The position numbers were made by a program, and so were the translations under genes. The notes beneath the pieces are model-generated. The model saw nothing but the letters and a program-made list of their open reading frames with translations. It made no database searches and had not been told where the DNA came from. Shown piece by piece: positions 8,459 through 22,221 of a stretch of DNA of 25,522 nucleotides. Each line of letters begins with the position of its first letter. Within the stretch, counting starts at the first letter, position 1. Origin of the DNA: an uncultured Pseudomonadota bacterium (GTDB lineage Bacteria; Babelota; Babeliae; Babelales; UASB340); contig CAZFDQ010000215.1 of NCBI GenBank assembly GCA_964518205.1, positions 1 to 25,522 of the forward strand, written 5' to 3'.

Positions 8459-8586
8459 GATTTTATAGAAGCATTAGTTTGAAATTAAAGTTAGTGATGA
8501 CAATAGTAGGCAATATTGATTGTTTGTTGTAGTTAGGTATGATGATTGTGTGCCTGTGAATGAGTTGTAAATTATGATAAGTAGTG

Positions 8587-8700
8587 TTGTCATCCCGGCC
8601 TACGAGCCGGGATCCACAGTAATATAATAATGTAGGTAACTTTTATAATTGGATATTGTTTATTAATTGTTTGGATCCTGAAGTAAGTTCAGGATGACAA
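8587..8700. repeat. REP/RPE-like doublet (REPIN/MITE-like), 114 bp
   Basis: Outer inverted repeat TTGTCATCC (8587-8595)/GGATGACAA (8692-8700); left hairpin ATCCCGGC/GCCGGGAT (8592-8599/8606-8613); right hairpin ATCCTGAA/TTCAGGAT (8675-8682/8688-8695); inner GGATCCA/TGGATCC around an AT-rich spacer. Confidence 0.85.
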
Positions 8701-11251: not shown

Positions 11252-11433
11252 GACTTTCTCCTTTTTTTTAATTTTATTTATCTTTACACTTTTATAATAT
11301 ATGTTTTGATTATCAAATAGCAATAGTTTGTTTGTTTTAATTAGGTGGTATTTTAAGTAGGAGCTGGTTATTTAGTTTGTATTTGGAATAATAGAGGGGG
11401 GTTGAATTGTTTGTGAATTATTATAGAGGTGTC

Positions 11434-11461
11434 GTCATCCCTTACTATGAGACGGGATCCA
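11434..11461 (+). repeat. Degenerate single copy of the GTCATCC...GGATCCA palindrome
   Basis: GTCATCCCTTACTATGAGACGGGATCCA versus GTCATCCCGGCCTACGAGCCGGGATCCA at 8589-8616: same length, 24/28 identical by manual count. Confidence 0.75.
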
Positions 11462-11920: not shown

Positions 11921-13711
11921 CTATTTGTCTATTTGCAATAGTTTTATTGTTTTGGATAATTTACGATGGTAGCTTATGGCGAAATGGTGCGCATAGTCGC
12001 GTAATGATATTAAAACTTGGCCAGCGTAGGTTTGTAGGTTTAGCTTTTTGCCTTCGGGGATTTTTACAGAAAATACGGTTTCTTCTCGTTTTGCAAGACT
12101 TATAAAATTTGCTTCGGAAAAAAGATCTTTTACGGCATTAAGTTGTCCTTTGCCGCCGTCAATTAAGATAAGATCGGGTAACTCTGATTTATTTTTGTAT
12201 CTTCTTTTTACTATTTCACGCAAACATGCGTAATCGTCTTGATGTTCAACGGTTTTTATTTTAAAACGTCTGAATTTATCTTTGTCTGGTTTACCATCTT
12301 TAAAGCGGATACAAGATCCAACCATAAACATGCCTTGTTTATGTGATATATCAAAGCAGTCTATTGTGTGTGGTTCGATGTCTAATCTGAGAAGATTTTT
12401 TAATGCTTTTGGAATAGTTTTTTGTTTTTTAATTTCTTGTTTGGCATGTATTTTTGCAAGCTTTATCAAGCTTGCAAAATGTCCAGATTTTGGTTGTTGA
12501 ACAGTTACTTTGTGTTCTTTATTGCCTGTGATCCGAAGCCTTGCTGTGCCCGCCGGAGCCTTGTACGAAGGCTGGGGCGAAGGATTATTCCATTTTTGTA
12601 AGAATTGTTCGAGTAGTTTCTTGTCTTTGATTTCAAAGTTAGAAAGAATTGTATTTGGACATGAATGGTTTTGGTAGTAGCTGGTTAAGTATTTGAGGGG
12701 AAGTTGTTCGTTTGTATCCGTTCGACTACGAGATTTTATCTCTTCGTTCAGAATGAACGGATTTTGGGTTATTTTTGTTTTTATAGTCCGTTCGCCCTGA
12801 GTGGAGCAACGCGAAATCGAAGGATGCGAACGGATTTCATCTAACAAAAAATAAAAAGCATACTTTTTACGCAAAGCGCTATTTTTTTCAGTAAAAACAA
12901 ACAAAACTTTTTTATCTGGAGTTAAGATCCAAATATCTTTATCGCCCAAGCTTTTAATTGAAGATTTTGTAGAAAAGTTTGTTTGCAAAGATTCGAACAC
13001 ATTTTGAAATGCTTTGTAGTACTCATGTAACTCTTTTGATTTTTCAAAATTAAGCTTTTTATTTTCTTTTTCAATTTCTTGTTCAAGGTGTTTTAAGAAG
13101 TTTTTATGACCTTTTTTTAATGCAAGCTTTGCAAGTTCTAATCGTTGTATGTAAGCATTTTTGTCAAAGTCGGGACGGCAGTATCCTGCGCATATTCCCA
13201 TATGATAATCAAGGCATCCATTTTCTATTTTTTTCTTACAAAGCTTTAGTTTGAAAGTTTGAATTAAAAAATCATACACTTTTCGGGCTGGTGTTTTTTC
13301 TAAGAATGGGCCAAAGTAGACACCTTTTTCTTTTTTGTTTCTAATAATTTTTAGTTCAGGTAATTTTTTGGGAGGAGTTGTTATGAGAATGTATAAAAAC
13401 AGTTGTCCTGTTTTGAGTAATATATTAAATTTTGGTTGATTTGATTGAATTAGCTGTGCTTCCAGCAGCATTGCTTCGAGTTCGTTTTTTGTAGTGATAA
13501 AATCAATTTTTTGGCTGCTTTCAATAATTGCACAGGCCTTTTTATTGGTATCTTGTTTTTGAAAATAACTGGCAACACGTTTTTTTAGATTTTTTGCTTT
13601 ACCGATATAAAGAATTTGATCATCTTTATCTTTAAATAGATAGACCCCTGGCTTTGCGGGTAATTTTTTGAAATCGGTAATGAGGTTTGAGAGGTTTTTA
13701 TTTTGTATCAT
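11921..13711 (-). CDS. uvrC: Excinuclease ABC subunit C, with two in-frame palindromic insertions and no C-terminal HhH
   Basis: GIY-YIG domain PGVYLF...YIGKAKNLKKRVASYF, ALMLEAQLI-type helix (AMLLEAQLI), Cys cluster LCKK...CLDYHMGICAGYC, UVR-like LNFEKS, RNase H-like domain IDCFDISH...LILIDGGKGQL...SLAKREE...RDYAHHFAISYHR. Confidence 0.93.
   Translation of the reverse strand: MIQNKNLSNLITDFKKLPAKPGVYLFKDKDDQILYIGKAKNLKKRVASYFQKQDTNKKACAIIESSQKIDFITTKNELEAMLLEAQLIQSNQPKFNILLKTGQLFLYILITTPPKKLPELKIIRNKKEKGVYFGPFLEKTPARKVYDFLIQTFKLKLCKKKIENGCLDYHMGICAGYCRPDFDKNAYIQRLELAKLALKKGHKNFLKHLEQEIEKENKKLNFEKSKELHEYYKAFQNVFESLQTNFSTKSSIKSLGDKDIWILTPDKKVLFVFTEKNSALRKKYAFYFLLDEIRSHPSISRCSTQGERTIKTKITQNPFILNEEIKSRSRTDTNEQLPLKYLTSYYQNHSCPNTILSNFEIKDKKLLEQFLQKWNNPSPQPSYKAPAGTARLRITGNKEHKVTVQQPKSGHFASLIKLAKIHAKQEIKKQKTIPKALKNLLRLDIEPHTIDCFDISHKQGMFMVGSCIRFKDGKPDKDKFRRFKIKTVEHQDDYACLREIVKRRYKNKSELPDLILIDGGKGQLNAVKDLFSEANFISLAKREETVFSVKIPEGKKLNLQTYAGQVLISLRDYAHHFAISYHRKLSKTIKLLQIDK
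12524..12583 (-). repeat. 60-bp palindromic insertion in uvrC (codons 377-396), apparently nested
   Basis: GC-rich island encoding PSPQPSYKAPAGTARLRITG; inner hairpin AGCCTT-N5-AAGGCT; flanked by ATT on both sides (12521-12523 and 12584-12586). Confidence 0.75.
12716..12835. repeat. 120-bp palindromic doublet inserted in frame in uvrC (codons 293-332)
   Basis: Outer inverted repeat ATCCGTTCG/CGAACGGAT. Sub-hairpins 12716-12762 (ATCCGTTC/GAACGGAT) and 12787-12834 (TCCGTTCGC/GCGAACGGA) separated by an AT-rich spacer. Exactly 40 codons. Confidence 0.85.
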
Positions 13712-18130: not shown

Positions 18131-18165
18131 TCTTTATTGCTTTGGGGTGAATTTAATAAAAAGAA

Positions 18166-18189
18166 TAGATCCTGAAATAATTTCAGGAT
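18166..18189 (+). repeat. Single copy of the ATCCTGAA...TTCAGGAT palindrome upstream of comM
   Basis: TAGATCCTGAAATAATTTCAGGAT versus TGGATCCTGAAGTAAGTTCAGGAT (8672-8695): 21/24 identical; 9-bp stem with 3-nt loop. Confidence 0.75.
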
Positions 18190-21960: not shown

Positions 21961-22221
21961 TCACCCCTAAAGGGGTTTGTGTGGAGAGGGAGAATCTATT
22001 ACCACGGGCTGAAGCCCGAGGCTAAAATATATTGCCCTTTCAGGGCAAAGAGAATATCAATAAATATAAAGCTTTATTAATTATTTAACTCTAATTTAAA
22101 AATGGGATTGTTTAAAAATTGTTTTTTTAGTTTTTGCCCTGTAAGGGCAATAGTATTTAGCCTCGTGCTTTAGCCCGTGGTTATGAAGCTTCCCATGTCA
22201 CCTAAACCCCTTTAGGGGTGA
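21961..22221. repeat. 261-bp composite inverted repeat (REPIN-like), two 89-bp arms with three hairpins each
   Basis: Arms 21961-22049 and 22133-22221 align as reverse complements without gaps: first 18 bp identical, 19-bp divergent block, then 45/52 identical; 83-bp AT-rich spacer. Confidence 0.9.

What the first reader, a model, noticed from the sequence alone, without database searches (positions are those of the whole stretch)
12716..12835. 120-bp REP-like doublet inserted exactly in frame into uvrC (40 extra residues)
Seen: a GC-rich double hairpin bounded by ATCCGTTCG/CGAACGGAT spans exactly codons 293-332 (IRSHPSISRCSTQGERT...EEIKSRSRTD) with no stop. The two halves are inverted relatives (CCGTTC..CTGA...TCGAA). 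Known: Rickettsia palindromic elements insert in frame into surface loops of conserved proteins. Inference: the same phenomenon in a different lineage and repeat family, with two unrelated families hitting one DNA-repair gene within about 130 bp, suggesting a permissive inter-domain region.
Basis: partly seen in the sequence, partly recalled or inferred. Interest (0 to 1): 0.78.

Follow-up and report, generated by a model that had tools for sequence, protein, structure and literature searches.

The report
Hairpin repeat doublet translated inside uvrC
A 120-base pair of small hairpin repeats, copied about 50 times around this AT-rich Dependentiae (Babeliales) genome, sits exactly in frame in a floppy loop of the DNA-repair gene uvrC, as the palindromic elements of Rickettsia do but in another phylum and repeat family.

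Summary
Window 12716-12835 is exactly codons 293-332 of uvrC (11921-13711, minus strand). It is stop-free, bounded by ATCCGTTCG/CGAACGGAT, and absent as a clean gap from all 119 other homologues aligned.

It is two head-to-head units of a dispersed repeat family (5' arm CCGTTCGCCCTGAG, variable inner hairpin, 3' arm TCGAAGG..CGAACGG).
- The family has 50 loci in this 1.48 Mb genome and none in a shuffled genome.
- 19 loci lie in frame inside long ORFs, including UvrA, FtsK, MnmG, TrmD and MurG.

The Rickettsia-palindromic-element (RPE) analogy is therefore supported.
- Both uvrC inserts lie in loops inside the middle RNase H-like domain (PF22920), not between domains.
- The second insert, 126 bp away, is a hairpin module that elsewhere nests inside this family, so the two are not unrelated.

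Other Dependentiae UvrCs carry modules of the same superfamily at the same loops, in at least three separate lineages. The core hairpin occurs letter for letter in many phyla.

The mobilising enzyme is unknown. There are no target duplications, and none of the Y1 transposase (RAYT-type) genes examined is flanked by this family. Translation is inferred, not shown.

This scan has already noted the same phenomenon in other Dependentiae genomes.

The parts
11921..13711 (-). uvrC coding sequence (596 aa): GIY-YIG domain, middle RNase H-like domain PF22920, C-terminal RNase H endonuclease domain PF08459.
   Evidence: ORF list. Pfam hits. All invariant columns of a 70-sequence alignment are kept. The identical protein is encoded on 6 contigs from different assemblies.
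12716..12835 (.). The 120-nt head-to-head repeat doublet, equal to codons 293-332. It adds about 40 residues to the loop between strand 279-287 and helix 334-348.
   Evidence: frame. (gap in all homologues). (pLDDT below 50 over residues 292-329, no secondary structure). (fold).
12716..12762 (-). Unit A, whose forward orientation lies on the minus strand. It is a decayed long-type unit: 5' arm CCGTTCATTCTGAA, inner hairpin GAGAT-AAA-ATCTC, 3' end TCGAACGGAT. It is translated as NPFILNEEIKSRSRTD (the 'PFALS' frame).
   Evidence: Alignment to a long-type genomic copy gives 32 matches; the four differences in the first 19 nt are all G/C to A/T changes. The same frame is used by in-ORF copies on C1, C58, C101, C159, C167 and C193.
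12763..12786 (.). AT-rich spacer between the two 5' arms (21% GC), translated roughly as TIKTKITQ. It may be native linker or part of the element; this is unresolved.
   Evidence: Spacers of other doublets in the genome are 8-33 nt and not conserved.
12787..12835 (+). Unit B, whose forward orientation lies on the plus strand. Its 5' arm CCGTTCGCCCTGAG matches the consensus exactly, and its 3' arm is TCGAAGGATGCGAACGG. In the gene it is read on its reverse complement as RSHPSISRCSTQGER (the 'QGER' frame).
   Evidence: The right junction is also present at 100% identity in a contig from a separate study (run X2, piece 12797-13222).
12524..12586 (-). Second in-frame insert (21 aa, NPSPQ...RITG; 63% GC), 126 bp from the doublet. 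It is a relative of the N-module hairpin (CCTGTCCGCC..AGCCTTGGCG..GGCGG) followed by a core-like GAGCCTTGTACGAAGG.
   Evidence: Gap in all homologues except P0009, which has its own N-module-like insert at the same place. Similarity to genomic N modules reaches z = 7.3 against shuffles. GC profile.

Best explanation
Window 12716-12835 is a head-to-head doublet of a small, selfish, hairpin-forming DNA repeat family that has spread through this Dependentiae/Babeliales genome.

Each unit has three parts: an outer stem (CCGTTCG paired with CGAACGG), a conserved core (CCCTGAG...TCGAAGG) and a variable inner hairpin.

The doublet landed in the loop between the third strand and first helix of UvrC's middle RNase H-like domain. 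It survived because its 120 nt keep the frame and carry no stop in the frame used. It is now most likely transcribed and translated as a roughly 40-residue disordered surface loop in an otherwise intact UvrC.

The same filter explains why 19 of the family's 50 loci sit in frame in housekeeping genes. The filter has three requirements: length a multiple of three, an open frame, and a tolerant loop.

What is shown:
- Family membership, copy number, and a clean gap in all homologues.
- In-frame copies in many identifiable genes.
- Recurrent related inserts at the same UvrC loops in other lineages.
- No target-site duplication, and no family unit beside any of the Y1 transposase genes examined.

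What is inferred:
- That the peptide is made and tolerated.
- That the repeat is or was mobile.
- That it spreads through a single-strand hairpin intermediate, like REP and IS200-type elements, using an enzyme not yet identified.

Whether the doublet arrived as one piece or as two successive insertions is open. Unit A looks older and unit B intact.
For: - Exact frame and no stop.
- Clean gap in 11 related genomes and in 119 database homologues. Removing the 40 aa leaves a linker like that of the closest insert-free homologues, which are 70% identical.
- The 5' arm occurs 57 times against 0 in a shuffled genome.
- Of 50 loci, 19 are embedded with at least 40 open codons on each side. Hosts are MnmG, a MacB/FtsX permease, an SDR, TrmD, a TsaD-family protein, MurG, UppP, a Mur ligase, FtsK (two sites), glycosyltransferases, UvrA and UvrC.
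- Head-to-head doublets recur at C1, C68, C101, C153, C159, C193 and C227.
- All invariant residues of the UvrC family are kept. The identical protein is assembled on 6 contigs.
- In the AF2 model the insert has pLDDT below 50 and is coil between well-modelled elements.
- Related modules sit at the same loop in P0002, P0012/P0016, P0018 and P0009, and at a nearby loop in P0092. The tree needs at least 7 gains or losses.
- The 5' arm is patchy across the order: 0-115 copies, present in 29 of 61 genomes.
- No target-site duplication.
Against: - No RNA or protein data exist. All four runs that hold the DNA appear to be DNA runs (kind guessed); none is on record as RNA. Translation of the insert is therefore untested.
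- Low pLDDT over the insert is partly forced, because the alignment carries no information there.
- No mobilising enzyme was found, and no empty-site allele of this uvrC was seen, so mobility is inferred from distribution only.
- Family copies are less frequent inside ORFs (38%) than random windows (58-67%). Most genic insertions are evidently not tolerated.
- Unit boundaries are uncertain by 1-2 nt, so the one-step versus two-step history cannot be decided.
Confidence: 0.85

Rival explanations
1. The doublet is not one inserted element but two separate events. An older long-type unit (A) inserted first, and an intact unit (B) later inserted 24 nt away, drawn to or tolerated beside the first. 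The spacer would then be native linker.
For: - Unit A carries four G/C to A/T changes in its first 19 nt and is 40% GC. Unit B has a perfect 14-nt arm and is 57% GC.
- Spacers of doublets elsewhere differ in length (8-33 nt) and sequence.
- The palindromic part of unit B is 48 nt, which on its own is a multiple of three.
Against: - The same head-to-head arrangement recurs at seven or more genomic loci and in the UvrC inserts of P0002, P0012 and P0092. This is easier to explain if the doublet is the unit that moves.
- Unit A as delimited is 47 nt.
Confidence: 0.4
2. The insert is present in the DNA but is not part of the mature protein. It would be removed from the RNA, or skipped by the ribosome, as the GC-rich bypass elements of some yeast mitochondria are (from memory, not checked in a paper).
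For: - The element can fold as RNA (z = -2.5).
- No expression data exclude this.
Against: - All 19 in-ORF copies keep the frame and lack stops. That constraint would be unnecessary if the element were removed or bypassed.
- There is no Rfam intron or ribozyme match.
- 120 nt is far too small for a self-splicing intron or an intein (established knowledge).
Confidence: 0.04
3. uvrC is decaying in this reduced genome, and the inserts are tolerated only because the gene no longer matters.
For: - One gene carries two inserts, and uvrA is hit as well.
- Some Babeliales genomes gave no UvrC match.
Against: - The ORF is full length, with every invariant family residue kept.
- The protein sequence is identical on 6 contigs.
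- The same family also sits in frame in genes such as trmD, murG, ftsK and mnmG, most of them essential in model bacteria (established knowledge).
Confidence: 0.06
4. The 40 residues are a native, lineage-specific linker expansion that only happens to look palindromic.
For: The linker length varies among homologues, and some extra segments there look AT-rich and non-palindromic (for example P0015).
Against: - The DNA matches a family with 50 genomic loci, including an exact 14-nt arm.
- Such arms are absent from a shuffled genome.
Confidence: 0.02

Closest known systems
Rickettsia palindromic elements (RPE; Ogata et al. 2000, as summarised in PMC10969869)
   Same: Dispersed palindromic repeats in an AT-rich, reduced-genome bacterium. 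Many copies are inserted in frame in unrelated conserved genes, presumably adding loops without destroying function.
   Different: A different phylum and an unrelated sequence. Units are about 36-60 nt and often paired, against about 100-150 bp for RPEs. The units are modular, with a variable inner hairpin and nested N modules. The core hairpin is also found letter for letter in many other phyla.
REP / BIME / REPIN elements with RAYT transposases (E. coli, Pseudomonas; from established knowledge and the discussion in PMC11893778)
   Same: Short imperfect palindromes at high copy number, often as inverted pairs of two unit types separated by short linkers, without target-site duplication. The genome does hold at least 5 Y1 transposase genes, each flanked by its own repeat family.
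   Different: 38% of loci lie inside ORFs rather than outside genes. No Y1 transposase gene is flanked by this family, here or in the three other Babeliales genomes that have such genes. Two genomes with 29 and 59 copies gave no Y1 transposase match at all.
NTS/SRM hairpin repeats of Ssn GIY-YIG single-strand nucleases (PMC11893778)
   Same: Small GC-rich oriented hairpins that multiply in genomes of many phyla.
   Different: The published SRM search pattern does not match the uvrC doublet or anything else in the window, and matches only 5 places in the genome against 1 in a shuffle. The small GIY-YIG gene on C60 is not flanked by this family. A different repeat in the window (GTCATCCCGG...CCGGGATCC) looks NTS-like by eye only.
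Classical bacterial MITEs (Correia, ERIC, BOX; PMC10969869)
   Same: Non-autonomous small repeats that can create in-frame fusions.
   Different: No target-site duplication in 44 units, and no related full-length insertion sequence was identified.

Membership tests
RPE-like coding palindromic elements (behaviour) | A dispersed repeat family with hairpin potential. | tested here: met
   50 loci, against 0 arm matches in a shuffled genome. Fold z = -2.4 to -2.7.
RPE-like coding palindromic elements (behaviour) | Copies inserted in frame in conserved protein genes, seen as clean gaps in orthologues. | tested here: met
   For uvrC the gap is seen in all homologues. A further 18 in-ORF loci lie in Pfam-identified genes; orthologue gaps were not checked for those.
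RPE families of Rickettsia (membership proper) | Sequence homology to the RPE consensus, with elements of about 100-150 bp encoding a conserved peptide. | tested here: not met
   Unit size is 36-60 nt and five different frames are used. No RPE sequences were available for a direct alignment, so the sequence comparison itself was not run.
REP/REPIN-RAYT system | Short imperfect palindromes, often in inverted doublets, without target duplication. | tested here: met
REP/REPIN-RAYT system | A cognate Y1 (RAYT) transposase gene flanked by the same repeats. | tested here: not met
   At least 5 Y1_Tnp genes in G000 are flanked by other repeat families. None of 9 Y1_Tnp loci in G033, G035 and G047 has the motif nearby. 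G041 (59 copies) and G007 (29 copies) gave no Y1_Tnp match at 93-94% completeness.
REP/REPIN-RAYT system | Extragenic location. | tested here: not met
   19 of 50 loci lie inside long ORFs.
MITE | Target-site duplication flanking terminal inverted repeats. | tested here: not met
   31 of 44 units have no flanking identity at all, and the rest have 1 nt, with single cases of 2 and 4 nt.
Ssn-related motif (SRM/NTS) | A match to the published degenerate SRM pattern, with a flanked ssn gene. | tested here: not met
   0 matches in the window. The small GIY-YIG gene on C60 has no family units beside it.
UvrC (host gene) | A GIY-YIG domain plus RNase H-like endonuclease domains, with the family's invariant residues. 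| tested here: met
   Pfam E-values of 5e-10, 2e-11 and 4e-40. Invariant columns are kept. The C-terminal helix-hairpin-helix domain typical of longer UvrCs was not detected.

The most novel reading that the evidence does not exclude
The recurrence of related hairpin modules at the same two UvrC loops in separate Dependentiae lineages may reflect targeted insertion by a still unknown, trans-acting and widely conserved enzyme, rather than only a selection filter. At the second loop the position agrees to within one or two codons and the orientation is the same in P0001 and P0009. The enzyme would recognise the pan-bacterial CCCTGAGC..GTCGAAGGG hairpin. That would make this a new class of mobile DNA that spreads across phyla without a RAYT and without target duplication.
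Probability: 0.15. Interest if true: 0.75.

Novelty: new member of a known kind. Interest (0 to 1): 0.5.

Why it matters
The finding extends the 'selfish DNA inside protein-coding genes' phenomenon of Rickettsia to Dependentiae, an unrelated phylum of small-genome bacteria. It shows the scale within one genome: about 40% of one family's loci lie in frame in housekeeping genes, including two of the three UvrABC genes.

The repeated use of the same UvrC loops marks natural permissive sites in the protein. It also offers a system for asking how essential proteins absorb random 15-45-residue loops.

The cross-phylum identity of the core hairpin, together with the lack of any linked transposase, leaves open how these modules move. 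For annotation, such inserts inflate protein lengths and break domain matches.

Tried and rejected
- **RAYT link.** Y1_Tnp genes were searched in G000 and in five other Babeliales genomes, and their flanks inspected. Every one is flanked by other repeats or by none.
- **Ssn/SRM link.** The published SRM pattern gives 0 hits in the window. The small GIY-YIG gene on C60 is not flanked by the family.
- **Target duplication or a conserved target motif.** None found in 44 units.
- **Known RNA families.** Only chance-level Rfam hits.
- **A recurrent neighbour gene.** ORFs within 600 nt of the core in 80 cross-phylum loci were clustered, and no family recurred.
- **Literature.** Searches for peptide strings typical of the repeat, for Dependentiae plus 'palindromic' and for core DNA words (only primers) found no description of this family.
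- **Reads.** Only Logan contigs from runs that appear to be DNA (kind guessed) were available. They break at both inserts and confirm only the right junction of unit B in a second study. There is no RNA run, so expression and excision could not be tested.
- **P0001 and P0002.** Whether their inserts share one origin is undecided. The two sit in an unresolved fork and read the element in different frames, QGER against SGRT.

Full report
**The observation**

The window comes from a 1.48 Mb, 32% GC metagenome-assembled genome of 295 contigs. Its UvrC homologues are named Candidatus Dependentiae or Babeliales by their sources.

The ORF at 11921-13711 on the minus strand encodes a 596-aa UvrC with three Pfam domains: GIY-YIG, PF22920 and PF08459. 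The reverse complement of 12716-12835 is exactly codons 293-332, giving 40 residues and no stop.

The stretch begins with ATCCGTTCG and ends with CGAACGGAT. It consists of two units around a 24-nt spacer of 21% GC:
- Unit A, 12716-12762, 40% GC.
- Unit B, 12787-12835, 57% GC.

As single-stranded DNA each unit closes with an 8-9 bp terminal stem. The doublet folds better than shuffles, z = -2.4 to -2.7.

**The gap in relatives**

A six-frame search of 30 related genomes found UvrC in 27. In the same-family genomes the match stops at about residue 291 and resumes at about residue 337.

The aligned orthologues show two clean gaps. One is about 40 aa at residues 293-332. The other is 21 aa at residues 376-396.

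The same gaps appear against 119 database homologues, whose typical length is about 525 aa. Removing the 40 aa leaves LLDE-TNEQ-LPLKYL. The closest insert-free homologues, 70% identical, read LPLEQD-QN-QYLEYF at that place.

The identical 596-aa protein is encoded on 6 contigs from several assemblies. A contig from a second study covers the right junction at 100% identity. The insert is therefore not an assembly artefact.

**What the element is**

The 14-nt arm CCGTTCGCCCTGAG occurs 57 times in the genome at up to 2 mismatches. Neither it nor the four 3'-arm variants occur in a block-shuffled genome, apart from a single hit for one variant.

Each unit has three parts:
- A 5' arm.
- A variable inner hairpin.
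- A 3' arm, such as TCGAATGGGTACGAACGG (long type) or TCGAAGGATACGAACG (short type). Two further subtypes are built on CCGATCACCCTGAGGAGC.

Merging arm hits gives 50 loci. Head-to-head doublets, often one long plus one short unit, occur on C1, C68, C101, C153, C159, C193 and C227. Tail-to-tail pairs occur on C31, C99, C174 and C262.

In uvrC, unit B has a perfect 5' arm. Unit A aligns to a long-type copy, but four of its first 19 nt have changed from G/C to A/T and it lacks the last 10 nt.

**In-frame copies elsewhere**

Nineteen of the 50 loci lie in an open frame with at least 40 open codons on each side. Pfam identifies the hosts:
- MnmG, with a 45-aa doublet.
- A MacB/FtsX permease.
- An SDR reductase and TrmD. 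In both, the domain match is split into two stretches.
- A TsaD-family protein.
- MurG and a Mur ligase, both hit between their domains.
- UppP.
- FtsK, at two sites.
- Two heparinase-like proteins and two glycosyltransferases.
- UvrA.

Five of the element's six frames are used (PFALS, VRPE, QGER, SGRT, LRANG). The sixth begins with a TGA.

Random windows of the same sizes fall in such ORFs 58-67% of the time. Genic copies are therefore depleted but far from excluded. Several further copies form protein tails.

**Where the inserts sit in the protein**

An AlphaFold2 model built on a 70-sequence alignment has mean pLDDT 85.6.
- Residues 292-329 have pLDDT below 50 and no secondary structure. 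They lie between strand 279-287 and helix 334-348.
- The second insert lies in the coil between helix 364-375 and strand 403-405.

The alignment holds no information for the inserts, so the low confidence there is partly by construction.

In the insert-free P0004, PF22920 matches residues 280-366 as one stretch. In this protein it matches only 331-374. Both inserts therefore interrupt loops inside the middle RNase H-like domain, not an inter-domain linker. Seven same-order UvrCs of 425-445 aa lack this whole region, which fits a tolerant region.

**Recurrence in other lineages**

Ten of the 120 aligned UvrC sequences, this one (P0001) included, carry 12 or more extra residues at the same site. 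Others carry extra residues near residues 265 and 362-398.

I fetched the DNA of six of these homologues:
- P0002 has a head-to-head doublet of the CCGTTCGCCCTGAGGAGC and CCGATCACCCTGAGG subtypes at the same loop. It is read in the SGRT frame, not QGER.
- P0012 has a head-to-head pair of the basic 26-nt unit.
- P0016, a close relative of P0012, has that unit with a second hairpin nested in its loop, and has lost the partner unit.
- P0018 has a short-type unit.
- P0092 has a doublet at a neighbouring loop.
- P0009 has N-module-like hairpins at both loops.

On a tree built without the insert columns, the presence of an insert at the first site needs 8 changes, and at least 7 are forced by well-supported branches. 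P0001, P0018 and the P0012 clade lie in separate supported clades. That makes at least three independent events among those verified at the DNA level. P0001 and P0002 sit in an unresolved fork, so a shared origin for those two is not excluded.

**The second insert**

The 63 nt at 12524-12586 resemble a hairpin module, here called the N module (CCTGTCCGCC..AGCCTTGGCG..GGCGG). Twelve copies were found in the genome, and the similarity reaches z = 7.3 against shuffles.

On C8, C107, C159, C167 and C261 this module is nested in the loop of units of the main family, between CCCTG and AGC..TCGAAGG. The two uvrC inserts are therefore modules of one repeat network, not unrelated families. The core-like GAGCCTTGTACGAAGG that follows in the insert was recognised by inspection only.

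**Distribution**

The 5' arm, at up to 1 mismatch, is present in 29 of 61 Babeliales genomes at 0 to 115 copies. The reversed-pattern control gives about 0. That patchiness fits lineage-specific bursts.

The hosts include Alphaproteobacteria, Chloroflexota, Thermodesulfobacteriota, Myxococcota, Ignavibacteria, a Syntrophomonas and others.

**How it spreads**

The mechanism is unknown. There is no target-site duplication and no conserved flanking motif in 44 units, which argues against a classical MITE.

The genome has at least 5 intact Y1 transposase genes, but each is flanked by its own, different repeat family. In five other Babeliales genomes no Y1 transposase gene has this family nearby, and two genomes with 29 and 59 copies gave no Y1 match.

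The published Ssn-related motif does not match. No neighbour gene recurs next to the core in 80 cross-phylum loci. Rfam gives nothing.

I therefore file the element as working like an RPE, with REP/BIME-like architecture, but as a member of neither family.

**Literature and earlier notes**

The searchable library holds no description of such repeats in Dependentiae. RPEs are the recognised precedent.

Earlier notes of this scan describe the same behaviour in other Dependentiae genomes, including a trmD case and the cross-phylum core. I re-tested those points here on this genome.

**Limits**

No RNA or protein data exist for this organism, so translation and tolerance of the loop are inferred. 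Unit boundaries are uncertain by 1-2 nt. The assembly is fragmented and about 91% complete.

Noticed in passing
window 8584-8616 and 11429-11461; also 8668-8695 and 18162-18189: A separate repeat family (GTCATCCCGG..CCGGGATCCA, and GATCCTGAA..TTCAGGATG) has 17 clustered copies genome-wide, none inside a long ORF. By eye it resembles the Neisseria NTS hairpin (CGTCATTCCCGCG..GCGGGAATC) of the Ssn nuclease paper, but the published SRM pattern does not match it.
   Followed up: partly
G000 contigs C94:1756-2082, C190:6395-6733, C200:767-1096, C285:202-540, C286:2663-2997, C20:5783-5911: At least five Y1 (IS200/RAYT-type) transposase genes, each bracketed by its own GC-rich palindromic repeat family. 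This is a set of classic REP-RAYT-like arrangements in a 1.5 Mb genome.
   Followed up: partly
loci L013-L017, L019, L020 (same-order genomes): Seven Babeliales UvrC genes of 425-445 aa lack the whole middle region (about residues 250-410 of this protein), which contains both insertion loops.
   Followed up: no
G000:C60:1032-1244: A 99-aa stand-alone GIY-YIG gene next to tRNA genes. It is a possible Ssn-type small nuclease and is not flanked by the uvrC repeat family.
   Followed up: partly
G033 and G041 (same order): In these genomes the same 5' arm occurs mostly as convergent pairs 150-210 nt apart, with the arms outward like terminal inverted repeats. There are 115 and 59 copies, which suggests a longer composite element there.
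   Followed up: no
G000:C196:1209-3863 (FtsK) and C270:3-1997 (UvrA): FtsK carries family copies at two places, a 79-aa composite in its linker and a unit inside the motor domain. UvrA carries one after its UvrA-interaction domain.
   Followed up: partly
window 21961-22221: A 110-nt inverted repeat pair, 75% complementary, with 41 nt between the arms. It was listed by the repeat finder and not examined further.
   Followed up: no
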